From a virus (taxonomy: Duplodnaviria > Caudoviricetes): DNA of 28,989 nt. The position numbers were made by a program, and so were the translations under genes. Under the pieces are notes generated by a model, which saw only the letters and a program-made list of their open reading frames with translations, did not search any database and was not told the origin of the DNA. The stretch covers positions 1-28,989 of IMG/VR virus record IMGVR_UViG_3300033414_000006, one strand, 5' to 3'. Below are positions 726 to 27,276 of this stretch, piece by piece (within the stretch, counting starts at the first letter, position 1; each line of letters starts with the position of its first letter).

Positions 726-1172
726 TCAAATCTCCTTCAAATAGATGCCGCCAACCCGATTCATTTTGAGTCTACGGTAAAGTTGCTCTGTTCGCTCCAC
801 ATCACCAATTCCTGAGCTGACGGCCATGCCCTTGATCTTTACGTCTGGTCTTGCGTCAGCCCATTCCATGAAGCGTTTTGCGAGAAAATATCCTGCCCGC
901 CTTGAATGCTCGTTGACGTAAAAGAAAACATCGCTCGCTTCCTTCTGCCTACTCCAAATCCACTCATCCACCATGCCAAGAAGAACGCCGTTAACCTCAC
1001 CGCCAACTTCGTCAACCCACGCGAATTGGGTAGGGCTCGATATGATGGTGGAGATGATCTTCCGGCACTTCTCGGGTGAAAGAGGAATGTCTTTGTAGAA
1101 GCTGATCGCATGCGCCTCTTGCATCAGCGCCCAGATTCTCGGCGCGTCGAGATAGGTGGCTTTTCTGATCAA
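726..1172 (-). CDS. GNAT-family acetyltransferase-like protein (virion assembly region)
   Basis: MIRKAT..D N-terminus, FFYVNEHSRRAG (motif A-like) and LYRRL C-terminal motif; T7 gp13-like position. Confidence 0.75.
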   Translation of the reverse strand: MIRKATYLDAPRIWALMQEAHAISFYKDIPLSPEKCRKIISTIISSPTQFAWVDEVGGEVNGVLLGMVDEWIWSRQKEASDVFFYVNEHSRRAGYFLAKRFMEWADARPDVKIKGMAVSSGIGDVERTEQLYRRLKMNRVGGIYLKEI

Positions 1173-2329
1173 GCGTTAGCCCATCCTTCGGGGGTCCATT
1201 GAACTCTATACTCACCTGCATTGTTGCCCCATCTATCGAATTTAGGGAATGTTTTTATCTGCCCCAAGAAAGATCCAGGAGATAAGTTTCCGCTACCTGG
1301 CGGAGGCGTCTGGCCCGGCGCCATACCTCCAGTGGATTGAACGGTTGGTGTAGATTCCGCTTCGCCTGGCATTCTTCCTGTCCAGTCAATAGCGTCCGGC
1401 GGAATTGAGCCGATAAGTTTCAGCCCACTCCCTAGCATTTCTAACTGCTTGTTCTTCCCTGCGTTCTGTTGCTCTGGCGATAGGTCTGGATTTGATGCAA
1501 TCTGTGAAATAGCCTGCATGGTTTGGTTGTACATATTAACCGCAGATACATTATTCTGAAGAGTTAGCTGGTGTTCTTTCTCAATACTCGCAAGAGCGAG
1601 TTTATTTTCCTGATCCAGGTTGGCCATCGTTTCTTGATGGGTTTGCTGAATAGAAAGCAGCTTTTCTTGATTGGCCTGCTGTTTGTCGGTCAACTGCAAT
1701 GTTTGTTCAAATCCAGTTTGTTGGGCGGATTTTTGGGCTTCGATCTGCTGCTGGTTAAGTTCTTTCGAGTACCCAAATCCGGCCTGTTGAGCGGCCTTAT
1801 TGGCTTCGATCTGTTGCTGGGTGAGTTGGGTTGAATATCCGAAGCCAGCCGCAGCCGCAGCTTTGTTGGCCTCAATCTGCTGCTGGGTCAACTGAGTTTG
1901 ATAACCAAAACCAGATTTGGCCGCCTCTTTCTGGGCCTCAATCTGCTGCTGGTTGAGCTGGGTGGAGTAGCCGAAGTTTTCAGCGCCAGCCTCTTTCCCC
2001 GCTTGAATCTGCTGTAAGTTCAAAGCCGATTGCCCCAAGAGCCCTTGGTTCGCCGCTGCTTGTCCTCGATATGCTCCGGCGGCTTCTGTGGCCAATGGCA
2101 TTGCAGCCCCGATAGCCGCTTCCTCGCCCGCCTGCACAGCCATTGAAGATGGCAGTAGTCCCCGTGCATTCCATGATTGTTTTGCGCGCGTCACGGCCTG
2201 TTGCTGGAGTGGATTATCCTTTGCAAGAATACCCGGCAACTGTCCAATAGCAGTCTCTTTCTCGGGGTCGAGTTCTCGAGTTGGTATGGTTATATTCTTT
2301 GCCAGTATTCCCGGATTATATTCGGCCAT
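1169..2329 (-). CDS. Putative DNA ejection / internal virion protein with 22-aa Gln-rich repeats
   Basis: Q/A-rich helical sequence with an NARGLL.SSMAV motif and tandem FGYxTQLxQQQIEA repeats. Confidence 0.6.
   Translation of the reverse strand: MAEYNPGILAKNITIPTRELDPEKETAIGQLPGILAKDNPLQQQAVTRAKQSWNARGLLPSSMAVQAGEEAAIGAAMPLATEAAGAYRGQAAANQGLLGQSALNLQQIQAGKEAGAENFGYSTQLNQQQIEAQKEAAKSGFGYQTQLTQQQIEANKAAAAAGFGYSTQLTQQQIEANKAAQQAGFGYSKELNQQQIEAQKSAQQTGFEQTLQLTDKQQANQEKLLSIQQTHQETMANLDQENKLALASIEKEHQLTLQNNVSAVNMYNQTMQAISQIASNPDLSPEQQNAGKNKQLEMLGSGLKLIGSIPPDAIDWTGRMPGEAESTPTVQSTGGMAPGQTPPPGSGNLSPGSFLGQIKTFPKFDRWGNNAGEYRVQWTPEGWANA
1712..1975 (-). repeat. Four tandem 66-bp (22-aa) coding repeats, plus a partial fifth
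   Basis: Phe codons of the repeat units start at 1975, 1909, 1843, 1777 and 1711, an exact 66-bp period. Confidence 0.9.
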
Positions 2330-3633: not shown

Positions 3634-4081
3634 TTCGTTTTATGGCCTTTAATGCGGACGCCAATGTATTCGGGTCGAATCTCCATGGGTCATCGAAACC
3701 AAGAATATAGGCGACGGCTTCTGAGCAAAACATTTTATTCCTATCCTCTCCTATTCTCCTTATAACAAATCCGGCAATACCGAGAACGTCATACAACTTC
3801 CCCTTGATGTTAAATATTCTATCCCTAATGCTTTGTTCATAGGCCAAGCGCTTATCTATTCTGTCAGAAAACCAATCCGATTCTAATCCTAGTTCAATAA
3901 AGTCCCAGTTAGATAGGTCGAAATCAATCCGTTTCTTACGCACACCGCCATCCATAAAACTGCTCGATATAGAAATTCCATCGTCAAGCACCAGTTCTAC
4001 ATGAGAGTACGGACCCCGCGTCCACCATGCTACCAGTTTGTTAAATAGGCGCTTTCGGCCTTTGTAAAGTGCAATTTTCAT
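3620..4081 (-). CDS. Permuted papain-like (NlpC/P60, YiiX/C92-like) protein
   Basis: YSHVEL His motif precedes the G..YD and FCSE Cys motifs, the permuted catalytic order. Confidence 0.75.
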   Translation of the reverse strand: MKIALYKGRKRLFNKLVAWWTRGPYSHVELVLDDGISISSSFMDGGVRKKRIDFDLSNWDFIELGLESDWFSDRIDKRLAYEQSIRDRIFNIKGKLYDVLGIAGFVIRRIGEDRNKMFCSEAVAYILGFDDPWRFDPNTLASALKAIKRNDRR

Positions 4082-4117: not shown

Positions 4118-5548
4118 TTATCGCGTATACCCGACAATTGCATAGGTCGCGTTACCTCCGGCTGTCCATTTTACATAAGCGTTTCCAGATACGACTGGAG
4201 CAAAAACTTCCATTGTCGACGATCCGAGTGGTGTAGCAACCGCAGTTGCTACTTGCTCGTAAGTTTCTACGGTCATGATTCCAGAAATAGTCGTACCGGC
4301 GTCACTATATACGTTGATAGTTCCGGTTCTTAACGCGACAGAATTTAACGCTTCGGTTATAACATATAGCCTTAATATCAATCCCGTAGCATTAGTTGGA
4401 GCCGCGATACTTGTTAATGTGTTCAATACCAGTACCGTAGGGGTTGCCATTGTGCTTCGACGGTAAGTTCCTCCGCCAATACTCACATATCCAGACTCCG
4501 CAGAATAAGGATAATTCCCAGCGTGCCAGGCGGTGCTGCCGTTGATGGTTACTGTAGTGTCTGCGTTTACAGACAAAACTTCCGTATACGAAATGGTTCC
4601 GCCAGCCACTCCGGTTGCCGCTACGCTAATGATCGCCGCGCCATTGGATGTGTTTAGATTGAGTCGTGGCGCATAGCCATTTACGGAATAATAAAAGACT
4701 CCAGCGGCATCTGTGTACGCATTTGATATAATACTTAGATTATAGTTCGATGAATGATTTCTGATTAATGCCGAATCACCAAAATCAATGGCATACATTG
4801 ATAAACTACTGCGTCTAGTGGCTCCTATGGAAATGTTATTACCTAGTCCTTGAATTGCTTTATTTGCGTCTAGCACGACGGCTTTCGATGCCTCCGCAGT
4901 CCCAGGCGTCGTAACATCCGTGTAATTCAGCTCGGTTGCCGTTGCAGTAACCGCAGCCCCGCCAATCGAGAAATTCGTCGTGCTTAAATCGGTAAGCCCG
5001 GTTGCACTACCACCAGTTATTGAAACAGCATTGCTATTCTGTGTCGCAATAGAACCCAGACCCATGGTGGTCCGTACAGTTGCGCCAGACTCCAGCCCAA
5101 CAGTCCCTGTTCCAGTGCCGACGATAAAATCGCCATCAACCACGCCGGAGATGTTCGCCTCAAGACCGCCATACTCGTGCTTGAGCTGGCCAGTGGAAGA
5201 AGTAAATGCGCTTAGTGTCGTTGGGTCTGTAGTTCCGTCGCCTATAACGATCTGGCCATCGGCAAGAACACTCATTGCCGTAATTGCGCCAGTTCCAGAG
5301 CCAAGCAAAATCCCGCCATCAGTCAAAGAAGCGGCACCAGTCCCTCCTTGTGCCACAGATAATTGAGGGGTCGTCTCAAGCGCGGTCCCGCCAGAATTAA
5401 CCACAACAACTTCCGATCCATTCCCCGTCAGAGTAGGCAATTTGTCAGATATATCTGATTCAATCGCGGCGAATTCATTTCGCATCGTCGCAGAAGCGCC
5501 TTGCGACCCCGTCGATGGGGACCCTGTCTTTGTGTACCAATCTGTCAT
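4118..5548 (-). CDS. Tail fibre / receptor-binding protein
   Basis: Gly/Thr/Ser-rich with VAQGGTGA, LGSIATQ and AWHAGN fibre motifs; follows the nozzle gene. Confidence 0.75.
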   Translation of the reverse strand: MTDWYTKTGSPSTGSQGASATMRNEFAAIESDISDKLPTLTGNGSEVVVVNSGGTALETTPQLSVAQGGTGAASLTDGGILLGSGTGAITAMSVLADGQIVIGDGTTDPTTLSAFTSSTGQLKHEYGGLEANISGVVDGDFIVGTGTGTVGLESGATVRTTMGLGSIATQNSNAVSITGGSATGLTDLSTTNFSIGGAAVTATATELNYTDVTTPGTAEASKAVVLDANKAIQGLGNNISIGATRRSSLSMYAIDFGDSALIRNHSSNYNLSIISNAYTDAAGVFYYSVNGYAPRLNLNTSNGAAIISVAATGVAGGTISYTEVLSVNADTTVTINGSTAWHAGNYPYSAESGYVSIGGGTYRRSTMATPTVLVLNTLTSIAAPTNATGLILRLYVITEALNSVALRTGTINVYSDAGTTISGIMTVETYEQVATAVATPLGSSTMEVFAPVVSGNAYVKWTAGGNATYAIVGYTR

Positions 5549-20094: not shown

Positions 20095-20225
20095 GTTTAT
20101 ATCCGCCCGGTGGCAGAGTGTCATTCTGTGTTGCCCTGTCCCTATTTTCGGGTAGAGGTCAGTGCTTGTGGCACGCTTCTTCGCCATCTCGCCCTATATA
20201 GAGTGATTTATTTCTTTCCTTGGCC

Positions 20226-20254
20226 TTGACTTGTGACATGTCACGACATATCAT
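20226..20254 (+). promoter_or_regulatory. Sigma70 promoter with a palindromic operator in the spacer
   Basis: TTGACT (20226-31), 17-bp spacer, TATCAT (20249-54); perfect palindrome GTGACATGTCAC at 20233-20244. Confidence 0.8.
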
Positions 20255-20315
20255 TACCACATCAGCGGAACAAACCGCTGGCCCGACCCGGGATAGGGGA
20301 TAGAGGGAATCTAAA

Positions 20316-20645
20316 ATGAAAAAGCAAATCGCACTGCACACACAGCTGAATTCAGGTATCTACAAATCATGTGGTGGCGGTCAGGACGTAATCGTCAGCA
20401 GCTGGAATTGTGGCCCGGCGAATCTGCTCAAGGCACTGGATGCCCTGCATGAAGAGCGTCAGTCTAATGTGCGTGGATACGGCAATATCGGATGTGGCAA
20501 ATCATGGCTTGAAATTGATGGTGTTTTTTTCGACGCGACCGCGCTTAATGATGAAATCCAGTATGAACAATACGTCCGCGAAGACAAGAATTTCCACCGC
20601 GCTCCTCTCAGCAAGATTGAAATAGCCAAAAAGCACATTGGCTAA
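20316..20645 (+). CDS. Hypothetical protein, gene 1 of the opposite-strand operon
   Basis: GAGGG RBS downstream of the consensus promoter. Confidence 0.75.
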   Translation: MKKQIALHTQLNSGIYKSCGGGQDVIVSSWNCGPANLLKALDALHEERQSNVRGYGNIGCGKSWLEIDGVFFDATALNDEIQYEQYVREDKNFHRAPLSKIEIAKKHIG

Positions 20646-20694
20646 AGCCCCTCAGCCCGGCGACCACCGCCGGGCGATACCTTGGAGAGAAAAA

Positions 20695-20955
20695 ATGACT
20701 ATATCGCCACTTAAACGAGCAACCGGGGTCATCATCAGAACCCTGCGCAGCACAGGCCACGGCAGTGATTACTATGGCGTCTGTGATCGATGCGGAAAGC
20801 ACGTATCTGAGACATTCGTCAGCCAATCCAGGGCACAGTACAAGCGCTCAACCGGAGAATTCTATTACTCTCCAATTGGCGGCGGTGCGTATGGCCACCG
20901 GGAATGCCTAGAACGTGATTACGGCCCACATCAGGAGGCTGTGACTCATGGCTAA
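20695..20955 (+). CDS. Small putative Zn-binding protein (CDRC...HREC)
   Basis: GGAG RBS before the ATG at 20695 (track start 20638 is a TTG); preceded by hairpin GCCCGGCG/CGCCGGGC. Confidence 0.7.
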   Translation: MTISPLKRATGVIIRTLRSTGHGSDYYGVCDRCGKHVSETFVSQSRAQYKRSTGEFYYSPIGGGAYGHRECLERDYGPHQEAVTHG

Positions 20956-21097
20956 ATCCACCAACCAGCGCAAAACCGAGCAGCGCAAGCGGGACCGAGC
21001 CCTTGGCATCGTCGAGCGCATCATCATCGTGCATGAGGATGACGTGCAGAGGGTCCGCGCCTTCGCCGAATCCCTGATGAAACAAAGGGGTTTCTAA
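20948..21097 (+). CDS. 49-aa basic protein, possible ribbon-helix-helix-type DNA-binding regulator (MAKSTNQRKTEQRKRDRALGIVERIIIVHEDDVQRVRAFAESLMKQRGF)
   Basis: Not in the ORF track. GGAGG RBS, overlaps the previous stop; basic helix, alternating strand, then helix. Confidence 0.7.
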   Translation: MAKSTNQRKTEQRKRDRALGIVERIIIVHEDDVQRVRAFAESLMKQRGF

Positions 21098-21098
21098 C

Positions 21099-21127
21099 AA
21101 AAAAGGCCGGTCATTCCCGACCGGCCT
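21099..21127. terminator. Terminator hairpin between convergent units (U-tract on the minus strand)
   Basis: AAAAAA-GGCCGGTC-ATTCCC-GACCGGCC-T. Confidence 0.8.
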
Positions 21128-21216
21128 ATCTCAAACACAACTTTCACCACTACTGGAACAGTAGCAAAAGAATTTGGTTTTTGCAACTACCTGTAATTTC
21201 AGACCTTGCACGGTCC

Positions 21217-21235
21217 GCATATTCAGATGTTAGGC
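21217..21235 (+). other. attI-like simple site / first insertion point of the cassette array
   Basis: GCATATT-CAGAT-GTTAGGC: degenerate L box, 5-bp spacer, GTTRRRY core; no upstream attC arm. Confidence 0.45.
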
Positions 21236-21859
21236 AACAAAGTCCCGGCATTTGATCTTCGTAATTAGCCTGTGGCCACTTCTTGTTCGCAGTTCCGTCT
21301 TCGGCCTTGCCACAATACCCTCGGCCTCGAAGTCTCCCCATGTGGAGGGTATGCCACGCTTCGCCCATGCAATGGCATCGTGAAGTGTTCCTTCCCCGAT
21401 GATCGGCACCACGTCGATTCCAAATTTGGCGGCCACATCCTCAACGTCTGTGCGTTGCAGCCACCAGTCGCCCACCTTCACATCAAACAGAACAAAGTCT
21501 TGGTCTTGCCGGTAGTTGCCTCCTCCCTTCTGAATTTTTGCACCATAGCCCTCTCCGTAAAGGCAAGCGTCACAACCGAACACCTCCTGCATCTTCTCCG
21601 CCAGGGGCAAGAACCGCTCATTGAGCCGTGCCACAAGCTGCGCGGGAATCTGCGTGGAGTCAGTCTTGCCACCAAAGGTAATTGCGCCGCCCTGCAACAT
21701 CACACGGATGTTCGTGCCGTCCACCTTCTCTGTAAAAACCCAAGTGTTCCCGGCCAGAAATTCAAGCTCCGGCAACGTCCACTGGCCCTCCAAAAGTGTT
21801 TTTTCCTTACGTTCCATGTCGCGCTTAAACAGCGTTTGTATCTTGTGGTACTCGTTCAT
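21230..21859 (-). CDS. ATP-dependent RNA ligase family protein (Rnl2-like nucleotidyltransferase domain); cassette 1
   Basis: Motifs I EKVDGTN, III LYGEGYG, IIIa FVLFDV, IV EGIVAR and V KIK. Confidence 0.85.
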   Translation of the reverse strand: MNEYHKIQTLFKRDMERKEKTLLEGQWTLPELEFLAGNTWVFTEKVDGTNIRVMLQGGAITFGGKTDSTQIPAQLVARLNERFLPLAEKMQEVFGCDACLYGEGYGAKIQKGGGNYRQDQDFVLFDVKVGDWWLQRTDVEDVAAKFGIDVVPIIGEGTLHDAIAWAKRGIPSTWGDFEAEGIVARPKTELRTRSGHRLITKIKCRDFVA

Positions 21860-21884
21860 TGTCTTCTCCGTAGATAAAATTGTT

Positions 21885-21969
21885 GCCTAACCATGCGCCC
21901 AAGCCGACGCCTTCGTCGGCGGTTAAATTTCACACGCCAGTGCGGCGCGGCTTACCTTCACCGTTATGC
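21885..21969 (+). other. attC site 1 (85 bp)
   Basis: GCCTAAC-N8-CAAGCCGACGCC...GGCGCGGCTTA-N8-GTTATGC; the arms resemble the aadA-type attC top strand as recalled. Confidence 0.9.
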
Positions 21970-22281
21970 CTCATCATCAACTATGCGCACCCTATTTCGG
22001 CTTGAATGGCTAGCGACAAAATCCATCACCTGCTGCTCATTATCGAATGCAATTGTGACAGTGCATTCATCACGATCAAATGCGACATGCTGCAAAGAAT
22101 CAGCGCGCACATACCTAATGGAGTCGTCTTTTATCATGCCATATCCTGGAGTAGGGCAATCACACCAACTCCATTCATCGCCATCCCGCACGAGATATAT
22201 TTCTGCATGGTCTGGCATAACAAGGCCTCTAAACACGGACTGGCCGCCAGCGGCGCTGCTCTTATTCTGTTGTTCACTCAT
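21964..22281 (-). CDS. Hypothetical protein; cassette 2
   Basis: Start MSEQ lies in the attC2 loop after AGGGGA; the TAA stop lies in the core site. Confidence 0.7.
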   Translation of the reverse strand: MSEQQNKSSAAGGQSVFRGLVMPDHAEIYLVRDGDEWSWCDCPTPGYGMIKDDSIRYVRADSLQHVAFDRDECTVTIAFDNEQQVMDFVASHSSRNRVRIVDDEA

Positions 22282-22340
22282 CTTCATCGGTCCCCTGTTG
22301 GTTCGGTGTTGCGGCCATCCGGTTAGCGGCACCGTTAGAC
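22215..22340 (+). other. attC site 2 (126 bp)
   Basis: GCATAAC...TAAACACGGACTGGCCGC / GCGGCCATCCGGTTA...GTTAGAC; imperfect stem with bulged bases on the left arm. Confidence 0.85.
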
Positions 22341-22597
22341 ATTAGGTTTACAGACTCGACAATCATAGCCGCGTGCTCCGGCGATTTCGCCCAGCACACA
22401 TGCCTTCCGTGGTAGTCGCAAACTTGCACAACTTGGTATCGAACTAAGTCTGGATGCCAGTCACCAGTCGGGCGCAGCATGTCGGCAATTTCGTTGCCGA
22501 ACCCAATGTGCCAAGGAGTGCTCATGTCTAACAATGCCGGTAGAGCGGACTGGCCTTCAGCGGTGCTTGCTTCAATGCTTGGGGTTTCGTTTTTCAT
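22274..22597 (-). CDS. Hypothetical protein; cassette 3
   Basis: Starts in the attC3 loop (TAATG overlap) and ends in the attC2 loop. Confidence 0.7.
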   Translation of the reverse strand: MKNETPSIEASTAEGQSALPALLDMSTPWHIGFGNEIADMLRPTGDWHPDLVRYQVVQVCDYHGRHVCWAKSPEHAAMIVESVNLMSNGAANRMAATPNQQGTDEDE

Positions 22598-22657
22598 TAT
22601 TGGCTCTCTATGTTTTGTGGTTTCGGTTCGGCCAGTCGCTCACCGGCAACGTTATGC
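22526..22657 (+). other. attC site 3 (132 bp)
   Basis: GTCTAAC..TGCCGGT-A-GAGCG-G-ACTGGCC / GGCCAGT-CGCTC-ACCGGCA..GTTATGC; two extrahelical bases. Confidence 0.88.
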
Positions 22658-22872
22658 CTCTTGTTCCAGCGCTCAAGCAACAGATCGGTTACGTCATCCA
22701 TCAGCGGGTAAATTAATCCGCTGGCCGCTCCGCATGCGCTGCTCGTGCATTGCACGCACTGTGCTCCAATGCTCGGGGCGTCGGTCTCGCCTTCGAGCGT
22801 GATAATTTCCGCCTCTGCGCCGCAGAATGGGTACGGTTTGAGCCGGTCGCTGTCGTCTATCATGTGGTCCAT
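22597..22872 (-). CDS. Lar-family restriction alleviation protein; cassette 4
   Basis: LKPYPFCG...CTSSACG...WNKR matches the LKPCPFCG/CxxCG/WNRR family signature; GGAG RBS before the ATG at 22872. Confidence 0.8.
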   Translation of the reverse strand: MDHMIDDSDRLKPYPFCGAEAEIITLEGETDAPSIGAQCVQCTSSACGAASGLIYPLMDDVTDLLLERWNKRHNVAGERLAEPKPQNIESQ

Positions 22873-22895
22873 AGTTAATCTCCGTTGTTGTCGCC

Positions 22896-22909
22896 GAGGC
22901 ATAACCCCG
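22896..22909 (+). other. attC remnant (R'' only)
   Basis: GAGGCATAAC is the exact complement of GTTATGCCTC at 22651; no pairing arms follow. Confidence 0.6.
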
Positions 22910-23290
22910 TCAGCACGTTGGCGCCGGAACGCCGAAGTCATGTTCAAGCCACGGCTTCTTGCACTTTGGGCAAAGCTCTTCGCCGAGCGGAAATGTCCCC
23001 TCTTCCGGGTACTCGCTTAGGTACGCTACGTGCGCGTAGTGCGTGGCCTTGCCATTGTCGTCAAGCACACCAGCCACCGGGCATTCGATGATGGTCATTT
23101 CCGTTTCCATCTCGTCGGTGTAGTCATGCGGCGCGATTACCAGCCCTACGGCCTCGGCCAGGTCTTTGATCTCTTTCCCAGTCAGTGTCAGCATTTCGGT
23201 TTCCTCTCTCAAAATCCGCCCAACACGGCGGTCAACGGCAGACTGGCCGCCAGCGGTTTCGTTTTCGTTTTCGGTTTTTTGTTCACTCAT
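22910..23290 (-). CDS. Hypothetical acidic protein; cassette 5
   Basis: The N-terminus MSEQ...AGGQS..RRVGR is encoded by an attC left arm. Confidence 0.75.
   Translation of the reverse strand: MSEQKTENENETAGGQSAVDRRVGRILREETEMLTLTGKEIKDLAEAVGLVIAPHDYTDEMETEMTIIECPVAGVLDDNGKATHYAHVAYLSEYPEEGTFPLGEELCPKCKKPWLEHDFGVPAPTC
23218..23290 (+). other. Half attC (left arm and part of loop)
   Basis: GCCCAAC...GACTGGCCGCCAGCGG...TGTTCACTCAT is shared with attC2; the right arm is absent. Confidence 0.7.
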
Positions 23291-23535
23291 CCACTCAGTT
23301 TCCTGCCGTGCAGATCCAACATGACATTTTTAAGCGCCTCCACTGCTGCCACTCCCCTCTTTTTCTGCCTATTTGCCAGCTCTGCCCGGCGCTCTGCCAA
23401 TGGCATAGAGAGCAAATGCCTGGCCTCACACTCTATCAGCCACTCCGGGCAGCTGCTGCACACCGTAGAGCCGTCTCGCAACGTGACCATTGGTGTTGCC
23501 TCATCCTCGCAGCGCTGGCAGCCTAGGCAGCTCAT
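23287..23535 (-). CDS. Hypothetical Cys-rich phage protein
   Basis: ATGA overlaps at both ends; contains ECEARHLL and KRG motifs. Confidence 0.7.
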   Translation of the reverse strand: MSCLGCQRCEDEATPMVTLRDGSTVCSSCPEWLIECEARHLLSMPLAERRAELANRQKKRGVAAVEALKNVMLDLHGRKLSG

Positions 23536-23926: not shown

Positions 23927-24204
23927 CTCAATATCCCCCGCGAATCCATCATTTTGGCCTTCAGGAATCCAATGTTTTCCAGCTCCGCCATGGCCCTGTT
24001 TCTTCCCCGTATGTCATCAACAGTTTTCAATCTCACAGGCCTTTTCTTTCCGCCCCTAATCTCGTCCATCCGTTCCACCGCCCTATCCTCTACCGGCCAA
24101 ATAACTATCGGCCTCACACTAATTGACTCTGCCTGGGGCTGGGACGGAATTTTCATTTCCGCCGTCCTCGTACTCACGAACGCCTTAACATGAGCATCCA
24201 TCAT
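23923..24204 (-). CDS. Hypothetical protein
   Basis: ATGA overlaps on both sides. Confidence 0.6.
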   Translation of the reverse strand: MMDAHVKAFVSTRTAEMKIPSQPQAESISVRPIVIWPVEDRAVERMDEIRGGKKRPVRLKTVDDIRGRNRAMAELENIGFLKAKMMDSRGILR

Positions 24205-25109
24205 GCTGATTTTCTCGATTTTGCGTGGCGGATGTTCTGGTGCTGGATGTATGCCAGCGTCTCAGGGCTGGGGGTGAGGCGTGGGGCGTCTTTGTAGGCG
24301 TTGGGCAATGACCACTCTGTTTGTGTTTTTCCGATTCGTTTAGTTATTACTCCTATCGATGATTTTGCCCTCCTTATTGATCCTGACTGTCCATTATATC
24401 CATGTTTAGACAACTCAATTAATACATCATTCAAAGATTTTGGCCCATCAGAGAGGATTTCTATTATCACTTTCTTAGCTCTGCTCAAAGCGGGGCTTCT
24501 ATCAATGTCATTCCTTATCGCTTTTTCTGGAGACCACCCTAGCTTGCGGATTCTTTGTCTAAAAGTAGATTCATCTATTTTATATTTTCTTGCGGCGTTT
24601 GCTATCGTTATGTATTCTCCATTGACATAAATAATCACATTTTTAGATGTGTTGTTTGCATTGATAATTTTTGTAACAAACCTACAATTATCTGGAGAAT
24701 ATCCTTTTTCATTATCTGCTCTATCTATTTCCTTTGATTCGTCATATCCATTATTGGTTGCCCATGTAATGAATGAATCAATACTATCCATCCATTCATC
24801 ACATATTTTGATTCCTCGCCCTCCATAGCGATGATACATTAATGATTTATCGTCATAACATCGCTGTCTCATTGCTCTATATATTGAGTATATTTTTTTT
24901 GATGAATGACCATGCGTTCTTGCCGAATCTTTCTGCAAGCACCCACATGATTTAGCATGTCCTCTTATCAGGTCATGAGATGTTATTTCTTTATCAATTC
25001 CGCAGTCACATCTACATAACCAGACTACGCTGCCACCCTTACGTCCGGCCTCAGAAATAACAGTAAGCCGCCCATATCTAGATCCACATAATTCGCGTTT
25101 ACTTGGCAT
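24201..25109 (-). CDS. HNH homing-endonuclease-like protein with C-terminal extension
   Basis: G.RYGRLTV, WLCRCDCG, KSCGCL, YGGRGIKICDEW and IDRADNEKGYSPDNCRF motifs; AT-rich. Confidence 0.85.
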   Translation of the reverse strand: MPSKRELCGSRYGRLTVISEAGRKGGSVVWLCRCDCGIDKEITSHDLIRGHAKSCGCLQKDSARTHGHSSKKIYSIYRAMRQRCYDDKSLMYHRYGGRGIKICDEWMDSIDSFITWATNNGYDESKEIDRADNEKGYSPDNCRFVTKIINANNTSKNVIIYVNGEYITIANAARKYKIDESTFRQRIRKLGWSPEKAIRNDIDRSPALSRAKKVIIEILSDGPKSLNDVLIELSKHGYNGQSGSIRRAKSSIGVITKRIGKTQTEWSLPNAYKDAPRLTPSPETLAYIQHQNIRHAKSRKSA

Positions 25110-26574
25110 ACGATCCCCTTATAAGTGAATTTTTTATAAAATTCATGACGTCACCTGCTGGCTTTGATGGCTTGCAGTGTTTTAGTCTAGCATCATTTGG
25201 CCAAACTGACATCATTTGCTTATAATTATGATTGGCCCATCCATCTTTATATCCATGCTCTTTTGCATACCATTTGAATCCTGCCATAAATCTTATTTTT
25301 TCATCCCATGGCATATTTCGATTGCGCTTTTCGGCGGCGTTCTCTTTGTCTGCTTTTGGCGAAAGTTGAACGAGTTCACCGGCTTCGTGCTCTATCGTGC
25401 TTTGTTTTTCTGGAGCGAATCCGCAGCATGGGCATATATGGACTTTTGCGGGCTTGACGAAATGACACTTCGCGCACGTCTTCGGCAACGGCTCTTCACG
25501 TTCCTTTTTATTCGATGAATTTTCTTTTTTCTTTCCGTCGTCAAGCTCAGATGGGAGTGGATCGGTTACAAACCCGAGCCGGGTTGTATTTCCAGCGTGA
25601 TCCAGCACTATGCAATCGTCCTTTCCCTCGCTTAATCTTAGCCCCCTGCCCTTCATTTGGATGTGCAGTATCAGGCTTTTAGTCGGCCTTCCAAGAATAA
25701 TGCATGAGGCATTCGGAGCGTCAAACCCTGTAGTAAGCACCCCCACAGAGGTCAGGAGTTTTATGTCACCCCTCTTGAAGGCGGATATGACCTCGTGGCG
25801 CTCTGAACTATCGGTGTAAGCGTCTATGTGCACCGCCTTTACTCCGGCGCGCACAAATTCACGCTCGATATGCTTTGAGTGCGCCACGTTGGTGGCAAAA
25901 CAGATTGTCTGTCTGTTCTGCCCCAGTTTCAGCCACGTCTCTACAATGTCGGCAACCAGCTTTGGCTTATCAACGGCCTCGTAAAGCTGCCCCTGGTGGT
26001 ACTCGCCAGCAACAATCTTGACGCCAGATAAATCGGGGGTGCTGGGGGCGTAAACTACGGCAGGAACCAGAAAGCCTTCATCCGTCAGCTGTTCCGTTGT
26101 TGCCCCAACAACGAGATTTGTGAAGTATTTCCCGAGTCCTTTTGAAAATGGCGTCGCCGAAAGTCCGATAAAAGGGATGTTGTTGTATGACTCGATCAAC
26201 TTTATGTGGGCTTTGTGCAGGCAGTGGACCTCATCTATGATGCAAAATCCCATGTCCGGCATGTTTCGCCTAGCGATGGTTTGAATGCTGGCAACCTGCA
26301 CGTCAGCTCTAGGGTTCCATTGGTAATGGTCTCCCTGTATCACGCCAACTGTAAGTCCGACGGCCTCCAGGTGGGCGACGCTCTGATCAACGAGGCTGAT
26401 TCGGTCTACAATGAAAACCGGCTTTCTTCCCTTTTCATAAGCCGATTTGATCAGGGTTGCAGCACAAATGCTCTTCCCACCGCCTGTGGCAAGCTGAAAT
26501 ATTTGGCATCTATGCCCATTCCTAAATCCTTCCCTTAGCTTATTTATGCCATCGGTTTGATATGGTCTTAGCAT
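25099..26574 (-). CDS. Superfamily 2 DEAD/DEAH-box DNA helicase with C-terminal Zn finger
   Basis: LRPYQ, ATGGGKS, DEVH, SAT, TGFD, QMKGRGLR and CAKC..CPCCG motifs. Confidence 0.95.
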   Translation of the reverse strand: MLRPYQTDGINKLREGFRNGHRCQIFQLATGGGKSICAATLIKSAYEKGRKPVFIVDRISLVDQSVAHLEAVGLTVGVIQGDHYQWNPRADVQVASIQTIARRNMPDMGFCIIDEVHCLHKAHIKLIESYNNIPFIGLSATPFSKGLGKYFTNLVVGATTEQLTDEGFLVPAVVYAPSTPDLSGVKIVAGEYHQGQLYEAVDKPKLVADIVETWLKLGQNRQTICFATNVAHSKHIEREFVRAGVKAVHIDAYTDSSERHEVISAFKRGDIKLLTSVGVLTTGFDAPNASCIILGRPTKSLILHIQMKGRGLRLSEGKDDCIVLDHAGNTTRLGFVTDPLPSELDDGKKKENSSNKKEREEPLPKTCAKCHFVKPAKVHICPCCGFAPEKQSTIEHEAGELVQLSPKADKENAAEKRNRNMPWDEKIRFMAGFKWYAKEHGYKDGWANHNYKQMMSVWPNDARLKHCKPSKPAGDVMNFIKNSLIRGSYAK

Positions 26575-27185
26575 GATGGATACTTCCGCTCACACAAGTA
26601 CCCGGGCGCTCCCTTAGAGACTCGCTTTCTAAGCGTGTTGACACTTATTCCTAAATGATTGGCGGCTAATTTTGCCGTTTCAAATGTCGAGCCATTGACG
26701 ATCCATCTCAGGCTATCTCTCTTGTTGTTAGCGTTTTGTGTCGGCGTGGCCCACCTGCAATTATCTACAGAATAATTCCCATTGTTATCTATCCTGTCTA
26801 TTTGATGATGAGGAGAAGGCTTTTCGCCCATATCTTCCAAGAATCCAACAAATCCACTCAACCATTTATCGCAAACAGAAATTCCGCGCCCACCGTAATT
26901 TTTATACAGAGCGTGCGCTGGATTTGTGCACCTCCCTATCATTTCCACCCACGTGTGATAAATCTTTGTTTTGGCGTATGAATGAATTGCTTTTCCTACG
27001 ACAATCAAACATCCACATGATTTTGTTTGTCCATTTTTTAAGTGACTACCAACAACAATGGAGGTTTTTCCACACTCACAAAGGCAGTTCCACCTTGAAT
27101 TCTTCGAGGAATTCCGCCCCGCAAACGATACTACGGAAAGTTTTCCGAAAGTTTTTCCAGTTAAATCTTCTGTTTTTGATTTCAT
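26568..27185 (-). CDS. HNH homing-endonuclease-like protein
   Basis: DLTGKTFGKL, WNCLCECG, YGGRGISVCDKW and IDRIDNNGNYSVDNCRWAT motifs; AAGGA RBS before the ATG at 27185. Confidence 0.88.
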   Translation of the reverse strand: MKSKTEDLTGKTFGKLSVVSFAGRNSSKNSRWNCLCECGKTSIVVGSHLKNGQTKSCGCLIVVGKAIHSYAKTKIYHTWVEMIGRCTNPAHALYKNYGGRGISVCDKWLSGFVGFLEDMGEKPSPHHQIDRIDNNGNYSVDNCRWATPTQNANNKRDSLRWIVNGSTFETAKLAANHLGISVNTLRKRVSKGAPGYLCERKYPSC

Positions 27186-27201
27186 AGCAGAATCCTTAAG
27201 G

Positions 27202-27276
27202 CAACCTGCCAGCAAGGAACCACCCTTGCCCAAGTTTGACGCCACAAGGTATACGCCGCCATTGTTTGGCAGGTTG
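27202..27276 (-). promoter_or_regulatory. Structured 5' leader (closing stem plus inner hairpins)
   Basis: CAACCTGCCA/TGGCAGGTTG inverted repeat encloses a GCAAGG/CCTTGC hairpin. Confidence 0.5.

What the first reader, a model, noticed from the sequence alone, without database searches (positions are those of the whole stretch)
21217..23290. Phage-borne integron-like cassette array without an integrase
Seen: three complete attC sites (21885-21969, 22215-22340, 22526-22657) with AAC/GTT ends, L boxes and bulged bases, plus two remnants. Each cassette's two ends are complementary beyond the 7-bp core: GTTAGGCAACAA/TTGTTGCCTAAC (12 bp), GTTATGCC/GGCATAAC, GTTAGACAT/ATGTCTAAC and GTTATGCCTC/GAGGCATAAC. 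Established: this is the footprint left when circular cassettes integrate at G|TT via IntI. Inference: the phage has a shufflable accessory-gene platform between its replication and packaging modules, driven by a host IntI in trans or by a recombinase outside the window. Integrons are classically chromosomal or plasmid-borne.
Basis: partly seen in the sequence, partly recalled or inferred. Interest (0 to 1): 0.92.

Follow-up and report, generated by a model that had tools for sequence, protein, structure and literature searches.

The report
Phage integron array with backwards genes
This phage keeps five small early genes as integron-type cassettes that read backwards relative to their recombination hairpins; the same cassettes appear in other phages joined to different neighbours at the same base, so an integron integrase, likely borrowed from the host or another phage, probably reshuffles them.

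Summary
Confirmed, with a major addition. The three attC sites are real: a model built from bacterial attC sites finds exactly them, on + only. All cargo genes (RNA ligase, Lar-like, three unknowns) lie on the opposite strand, and three begin inside an attC loop. The left "remnant" behaves as an attI docking site: relatives keep it and carry other first cassettes. Exchange at G|TT is seen directly: in 9 of 14 phage contigs the Lar cassette is followed by a different attC, and near-identical metagenome contigs put cassettes 1, 3 and 4 beside other neighbours. The two ends of the ligase cassette co-vary across phages. No tyrosine recombinase lies in this half-complete genome or in a complete relative with the same platform. 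However, cassettes 4 and 5 also occur in phages that encode their own IntI beside a conserved attI. I found no paper describing the inverted cargo or this phage IntI group. This scan noted inverted phage arrays before, on other DNA. IntI activity on these sites is untested. Verdict: new variant of a known kind.

The parts
21104..21127 (-). Intrinsic-terminator-like hairpin that closes the leftward gene run just past the docking site
   Evidence: 10-bp stem, T tail; also present in G020
21119..21235 (+). attI-like docking site; crossover G|TT at 21229/21230; not a full attC
   Evidence: 93% identical over 116 bp in G020, ending at the core, with another first cassette; other first cassettes in runs X2 and X4; no covariance-model hit
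21230..21859 (-). Cassette 1 gene: Rnl2-type RNA ligase, 209 aa; its stop TAA lies in the core site
   Evidence: PF09414 E 8e-19; PHROG 548; T4 Rnl2 E 2e-4
21885..21969 (+). attC 1 (aadB/aadA-type arms), belongs to the ligase cassette
   Evidence: 44.7 bits; its 5' half is 85% like the aadB attC, in the sense of aadB
21964..22281 (-). Cassette 2 gene, unknown, 105 aa; starts in the loop of attC 2 and reads through the core in frame
   Evidence: no family hit; no homologue other than itself
22215..22340 (+). attC 2 (long type, three extra bases on the 5' arm); its loop holds the stop of gene 3 overlapping the start of gene 2
22274..22597 (-). Cassette 3 gene, unknown, 107 aa; starts in the loop of attC 3 and ends in the loop of attC 2
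   Evidence: 12 homologues, several with attC-type leaders and no Met after the core
22526..22657 (+). attC 3 (long type); its loop holds a TAATG stop/start overlap
22597..22872 (-). Cassette 4 gene: Lar-like restriction-alleviation protein; its C-terminal tail is encoded by the neighbouring attC; first Cys of the CxxC motif is Tyr here
   Evidence: PHROG 599, PF14354 and TIGR03655, the last two below cut-off; relatives
22899..22923 (+). Collapsed attC: both core boxes kept, only 11 bases between them
   Evidence: full-length attC at this place in relatives
22910..23290 (-). Cassette 5 gene, unknown; leader from the half attC plus its own SD and ATG at 23194
   Evidence: 83% identical cassette docked at attI next to an intact IntI in L395
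23218..23290 (+). Half attC (left arm and loop up to the start codon), joined to the end of the DUF7696 gene
   Evidence: 90% like a full attC in L273; same junction type with a different cassette in G020
23287..23535 (-). DUF7696 gene, the fixed flank at the promoter-proximal end of the array
   Evidence: PF24751; shared with G020

Best explanation
This is a phage-borne integron cassette array whose genes read antisense to the attC sites and whose cassettes are exchanged between phages at G|TT, most likely by an IntI supplied in trans by the host or by a co-resident IntI-encoding phage. Shown: attC anatomy and polarity; all five genes on the attC bottom strand; the same cassettes with other neighbours at the same base; a constant left site with variable first cassettes; no recombinase in the window or in complete relative G020; intact IntI genes in other phages that share cassettes 4 and 5. 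Inferred: (1) The bottom strands fold, IntI excises cassettes as circles and reinserts them at the attI-like site or at an attC. (2) The genes are read from the phage's leftward early transcript, with no integron Pc promoter; new cassettes would land last, before the terminator, rather than first. (3) Each gene's own attC sits at its 5' end, so long attC loops carry the ribosome-binding site and start codon with the cassette; translating through the hairpin would couple neighbouring genes. (4) Ordinary bacterial cassettes docked here would be antisense and silent, which would keep the phage pool functionally separate. (5) The promoter-proximal end (collapsed and half attC) is older, decayed and partly rearranged by homologous recombination. 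The cargo probably serves counter-defence (Lar-like; RNA repair), by family resemblance only.
For: Polarity: model hits on + only; extra bases on the 5' arm; aadB match in gene sense; the same long-attC arms lie near IntI genes in bacterial loci L193 and L220. Exchange: Lar homology stops at 22647-22651 in 10 of 14 loci, and 9 of 14 have a different full attC there. Population: X2 holds cassette 3 (22332-22654, 1 difference) running on into other sequence after the core; X2 and X4 hold cassette 4 starting at 22650; X6 holds the ligase cassette (1 difference) behind an attC-like arm at 21229; X4 joins 21234 to 22216 across 252 other letters. Circle signature: core positions 4-7 match in 46 of 56 cells across 14 distinct ligase cassette end pairs, against 31.1 when permuted, p about 5e-5; circle-form sites fold better than array-form ones (site 1: -19.8 against -17.4 kcal/mol). 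Enzyme: G001, a complete temperate phage with the Lar cassette, encodes IntI (TIGR02249 453 bits, cut-off 265; 57% to IntI1). 50 viral loci hold relatives of that IntI; 29 of 44 cassette intervals beside them are inverted, 1 canonical, 14 unclear. G020 has the platform and no tyrosine recombinase.
Against: No recombination assay was run and no circle junction was seen (no joint of that kind; contigs drop rare forms). The window's attI-like site does not match the attI of the phage IntI group beyond a loose dyad, so the cognate integrase is unidentified. Contig break points in a metagenome can come from other phages. The permutation test does not correct for kinship. 31 of 52 full-length ligase loci lack cassette ends. 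Two of the five sites are broken. Loop starts are a minority: 5 of 17 long and 0 of 25 short attC sites. No expression data exist for any gene.
Confidence: 0.68

Rival explanations
1. The same mechanism, but this phage encodes its own IntI in the missing half of its genome, so it is a complete phage integron with a detached integrase.
For: The record is about 50% complete. G007 has an integrase-less array near its terminase and an IntI with a second array elsewhere.
Against: G020 is complete, has the same platform and two arrays, and has no tyrosine recombinase. IntI was found in only 2 of 10 attC-bearing records at least 90% complete. A terminator, not intI, follows the docking site here.
Confidence: 0.14
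2. The array is a fossil: cassettes were once made by IntI, but today they move only by homologous or illegitimate recombination between similar attC arms and cores.
For: Collapsed and half sites; the half site shares its loop with attC 2; no integrase; G020 shares only 3.1 of 29 kb with the window, typical of mosaic exchange.
Against: Break points fall at the core, with unrelated attC arms on the other side. The ends of a cassette co-vary 660 bp apart. Near-identical cassettes have different neighbours.
Confidence: 0.12
3. A non-IntI phage or host tyrosine recombinase moves the cassettes.
For: G003, G005 and G018 carry ordinary phage integrases; an earlier scan note reported a shorter recombinase beside similar arrays in giant phages (not checked here).
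Against: The sites have IntI-type extra bases and cores; shared cassettes lie beside true IntI genes.
Confidence: 0.04
4. The hairpins are RNA elements (terminators, processing or translation signals) and the resemblance to attC is incidental.
For: They lie on the predicted mRNA and hold start and stop codons.
Against: No Rfam match; exact attC anatomy; exchange at G|TT; association with IntI and attI.
Confidence: 0.02

Closest known systems
Phage CALINs (attC clusters lacking an integrase) of Qi et al. 2023, PMC9892861: TJE1, PH101, P12002L, ctTUS972
   Same: Phage genome, several attC sites, no intI nearby, counter-defence-like cargo; five of six phage attC sites tested there recombined with attI1 through IntI1.
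   Different: The paper's main text and the part of the supplement I read do not describe antisense genes, loop starts, an attI-like phage site of this kind or exchange between phages. TJE1 is canonical (2 of 2 cassettes). In ctTUS972 four attC hits lie on - among genes annotated on +, so it looks inverted; my interval test there gave 1 inverted, 1 canonical, 1 unclear. PH101 was not examined; P12002L gave no model hit.
Class 1 mobile integrons and sedentary chromosomal integrons (IntI, attI, Pc, attC cassettes)
   Same: attC cores, L boxes, extra bases, G|TT crossover, cassette-end complementarity; attC 1 resembles aadB attC; in the IntI-bearing phages intI, attI and attC have the regular geometry (75 of 76 hits opposite to intI).
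   Different: Genes lie on the bottom strand, each behind its own attC; expression would come from a phage promoter at the far end; new cassettes would be last in the transcript. Nivina et al. 2016 (PMC5027507, passages) say cassettes facing the promoter were never seen in mobile or sedentary integrons; that refers to whole cassettes, whereas here only the gene is flipped.
Short ORFs within attC sites that relieve translation blocks (Jacquier et al., as reviewed in PMC8876359 section 3.2)
   Same: Translation through an attC hairpin couples neighbouring cassette genes.
   Different: Here it happens on the bottom strand, and the loop supplies the start and N-terminus of the cassette's own protein (the only ATG in G020 cassette B).

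Membership tests
attC site | RYYYAAC and GTTRRRY cores, 57-141 bp, imperfect hairpin | tested here: met
   85, 126 and 132 bp
attC site | Two or three extrahelical bases on the R''-L'' arm that set strand polarity | tested here: met
   Three and two extra bases on the 5' arm for sites 2 and 3; site 1 aligns to the aadB-type C and A
attC site | Bottom strand recombined by IntI | not testable with these tools
   Needs a conjugation assay; predicted pairing of the R box is 0.37-0.89 in the array and 0.94-0.98 as circles
Gene cassette | Mobile unit bounded by G|TT crossovers | tested here: met
   Cassettes 1, 3, 4 and 5 seen with other neighbours; cassette 2 not seen elsewhere in another context
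Gene cassette (canonical) | ORF on the attC top strand, followed by its attC | tested here: not met
   5 of 5 ORFs are on the bottom strand
CALIN | At least three attC sites clustered with no neighbouring intI | tested here: met
   the genome is only half complete
Complete integron | intI with the IntI-specific patch next to attI | tested here: not met
   None in the window; met in G001
Complete integron | attI primary insertion site | tested here: inconclusive
   21119-21235 behaves as a constant docking site but matches no attI next to an IntI that I fetched
Complete integron | Pc promoter reading into the array from attI | tested here: not met
   No promoter-like site there; a terminator on the gene strand instead (consensus scan only)

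The most novel reading that the evidence does not exclude
Temperate phages run their own integron system: a phage-specific IntI lineage placed as a gene of the early operon, with its own attI, serving a cassette pool of opposite polarity that is shared with integrase-less phages like this one and is silent in host integrons. Ordinary phage genes (RNA ligase, Lar) are converted into such cassettes, so phage genomes are a place where cassette genesis can be watched: the ligase family occurs both with and without cassette ends, and attC loops have evolved into ribosome-binding sites and protein leaders.
Probability: 0.45. Interest if true: 0.85.

Novelty: new variant of a known kind. Interest (0 to 1): 0.68.

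Why it matters
It gives a site-specific route for the gene turnover seen in phage early regions, usually put down to illegitimate recombination (recalled, not from a call). It extends integrons from a bacterial adaptation device to one that phages use, plausibly for counter-defence genes. The flipped polarity predicts a different expression logic: no Pc, newest cassette last, start codons inside attC. A gene family found both free and in cassette form makes the open question of cassette genesis testable by phylogeny. Practically, it explains a class of variable N- and C-terminal tails on small phage proteins (for example nine Lar neighbours giving different tails).

Tried and rejected
Rfam scan: no match up to E 1. 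TerL-based search for close relatives: 80 loci kept of 471, at most 60% identical, with no comparable array. Viral scans for cassettes 2 and 3: two weak 24-residue hits and none. A pattern scan for the attI-like site in viral contigs gave 51 chance matches with no attC nearby (0 model hits); the longer pattern in metagenome contigs returned only the window's own contig. The cognate bacterial integron was not found. BLAST of the array against GenBank phages found only four RNA ligase matches. My first covariation test chose the best GTT per row and was replaced by a fixed rule. The ORF-polarity script is crude: it left 7 of 10 bacterial intervals unclear with the SD rule (3 canonical, 0 inverted) and 2 of 6 without it (4 canonical). 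A single fixed reading frame through all sites was considered and rejected: gene 2 reads GTT as a codon, gene 3 does not, and two genes stop at the core while two read on. No RNA holder listed. No structure prediction or complex job was run, as neither bears on the claim. Literature searches that found no description of inverted cargo or a phage IntI group; the library lacks most subscription papers, and the Dryad annotation file and figures of Qi et al. were not visible, so prior mention cannot be excluded.

Full report
1. Context. The window is the whole record G000, a linear virus contig about 50% complete. It carries endolysin, head, portal and terminase genes on the left and HNH, helicase and small early genes on the right, nearly all on the minus strand.

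2. The three sites have the stated cores and lengths. A covariance model built from 26 attC top strands finds these three on + only, and nothing else credible in 29 kb. Some training sites were fetched with a motif from sites 2 and 3, so those two scores lean upward. Site 1 is independently like the aadB attC, 85% over 37 bases, in the sense of the aadB gene. A separate detector gave a mean of 0.13 hits per shuffled window and never three in 1 kb (0 of 60), though it missed site 1. The long-type arms of sites 2 and 3 recur in bacterial loci, with a full-length IntI match in L193, a broken one in L220 and fragments in L180 and L211. End complementarity is 12, 8, 9 and 10 bases; cassettes 2 and 4 share a start, so their pairing is not specific.

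3. The attC top strand is +, but all five genes are on -. Each gene therefore lies behind its own attC. Genes 2, 3 and 5 have an ATG inside an attC loop, in frame with the body and overlapping the stop of the gene before. Homologues of gene 3 keep an attC-type leader and mostly lack a Met after the core. In relative G020 both cassettes start in the loop, and one has no other ATG. In 59 cassette intervals from viral loci, 42 were inverted, 1 canonical and 16 unclear; this includes two from the window, counts homologous Lar and ligase cassettes more than once, and uses loci fetched through this array's genes or an attC motif. Loop starts are a minority (5 of 17 long sites, 0 of 25 short). Bacterial controls gave 3 canonical, 0 inverted, 7 unclear of 10. 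The frame through the core is not fixed across sites.

4. Cassettes are exchanged at G|TT. Lar-like cassette: 14 viral loci; homology ends at 22647-22651 in 10 of them, and in 9 a different full attC follows. Its own attC is intact in most relatives and collapsed to 25 bases here. Ligase cassette: of 52 full-length copies including the window, 21 have both core boxes by a fixed rule, giving 14 distinct end pairs; positions 4-7 match in 46 of 56 cells against 31.1 permuted (p about 5e-5, kinship not corrected). The other 31 lack cassette ends. Circle-form attC sites fold better than array-form ones. In public metagenome contigs from two studies (X1 left out as the possible source): X2 holds cassette 3 with one difference, running into other sequence after 22654; X2 and X4 hold cassette 4 starting at 22650 with unlaid letters in front; X6 holds the ligase cassette behind an attC-like arm at 21229; X2 holds 72 identical bases of the left site followed by another sequence after 21234; X4 joins 21234 to 22216 across 252 other letters. 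Tables were cut, and short matches may come from other phages. No circle junction was seen.

5. The ends of the array. The left remnant is a constant site with variable first cassettes. G020, a complete 51 kb phage with terminal repeats, shares it at 93% over 116 bases up to the core, together with the terminator before it and the DUF7696 gene at the far end, but holds two other cassettes. I read it as attI-like. It does not match the attI of the phage IntI group beyond a loose dyad, and pattern scans found no further copies. The right remnant is a half attC whose loop start is joined to the DUF7696 stop in both phages, with different cassettes attached. I infer homologous exchange in the shared loop there.

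6. The enzyme. There is no tyrosine recombinase in the window or in G020. Of 20 attC-bearing records searched, 2 encode IntI (G001, G007); of the 10 at least 90% complete, the same 2. G001 is a complete temperate phage (terminase, portal, tail, endolysin, a separate integrase) with the Lar cassette and an intact IntI directly after the last cassette (TIGR02249 453 bits). That IntI has relatives in 50 viral loci. A shared attI core, matched with a pattern written from these same loci, lies in 35 of 50, with 30 distinct cassette ends next to it. In the 37 loci searched, 75 of 76 attC hits are opposite to intI, the regular geometry. Beside them 29 of 44 intervals are inverted, 1 canonical and 14 unclear; without the SD rule the counts are 24, 4 and 16. 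The window's cassette 5 sits at attI next to such an IntI in L395. So this array shares its pool with complete phage integrons.

7. Mechanism. Established for integrons: IntI recombines the folded attC bottom strand with attI at G|TT, and extra bases set the strand (PMC5027507 and PMC5371416, passages read). Inferred here: IntI in trans excises and reinserts these cassettes; the genes are read from the phage early transcript, so a new cassette would come last; loops carry translation starts, which would also melt the hairpin in the mRNA (compare PMC8876359, section 3.2 and passages); canonical host cassettes would be silent at this site. If the genes are co-directional with replication, the bottom strand would be the lagging-strand template, which favours folding (PMC5371416); the direction of replication is unknown here. 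Cargo functions rest on family hits only. The Lar-like copy has Tyr for the first Cys that all 11 translated relatives keep, so it may be impaired.

8. Prior knowledge. Qi et al. 2023 (PMC9892861; I read parts 1-4 of 7, which hold the main text, and part 1 of 2 of the supplement) report 17 phage CALINs, 3 complete phage integrons and IntI1 recombination of five phage attC sites. Phage location is therefore not new. They do not describe antisense cargo. TJE1 is canonical; ctTUS972 looks inverted by strand of hits against annotation. Eight searches found no paper on inverted cargo or a phage IntI group. PMC9024848, PMC13323075 and PMC13366799 were checked by passages and add nothing on this. Earlier notes of this scan report the same layout in other phages; they are unchecked and are not counted as support.

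9. Verdict. A real, recently shuffled phage cassette array. It is a member of the CALIN class and works like an integron, but it is not a canonical or complete integron. New variant of a known kind; interest 0.68.

Noticed in passing
L037 and L038, both sides of the RNA ligase gene (about 3960-4000 and 4643-4670): A direct repeat of about 24 bases flanks the ligase gene on both sides, with no attC cores: a different kind of gene-boundary module.
   Followed up: no
window 20110-21095: Three small + strand ORFs between the terminase promoter region and the terminator are absent or replaced in relatives: X4 and X2 contigs skip about 1 kb, and G020 has another gene there. A second variable slot.
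   Followed up: partly
L346-L395 (viral loci), for example L346 2940-4032: A group of phage-encoded IntI genes with a conserved attI directly before the start codon and inverted cargo; worth its own study.
   Followed up: partly
L396 8437-9525 (G020); L293 5813-6625 and 15449-18028 (G007): These phages carry two separate attC arrays each; in G007 one lies beside IntI and one does not.
   Followed up: partly
L269 2069-3738 (ctTUS972, MW202573): A published phage CALIN has attC hits on the strand opposite to its annotated genes; the paper's text does not remark on it.
   Followed up: partly
L187 3898-4031: A long attC in a Desulfobacterales contig has ATG codons in its bottom-strand loop and a leader-like frame, although neighbouring cassettes are canonical; it may be a phage-type site in a bacterial array.
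   Followed up: no
L273 996-1632: A methyltransferase-like cassette (motif recalled) whose only plausible start lies in its attC loop; that attC is 90% like the window's half site.
   Followed up: partly
window 24201-25109 and 26568-27245: Two related HNH endonuclease genes flank the helicase; the first lies in a low-GC stretch (34%).
   Followed up: no
window 1169-2329: A glutamine-rich virion or ejection-like protein with about six imperfect 22-residue repeats.
   Followed up: no
window 22830-22835 (Lar-like gene): The first Cys of the CPFCG motif is Tyr here and Cys in 11 of 11 translated relatives.
   Followed up: partly
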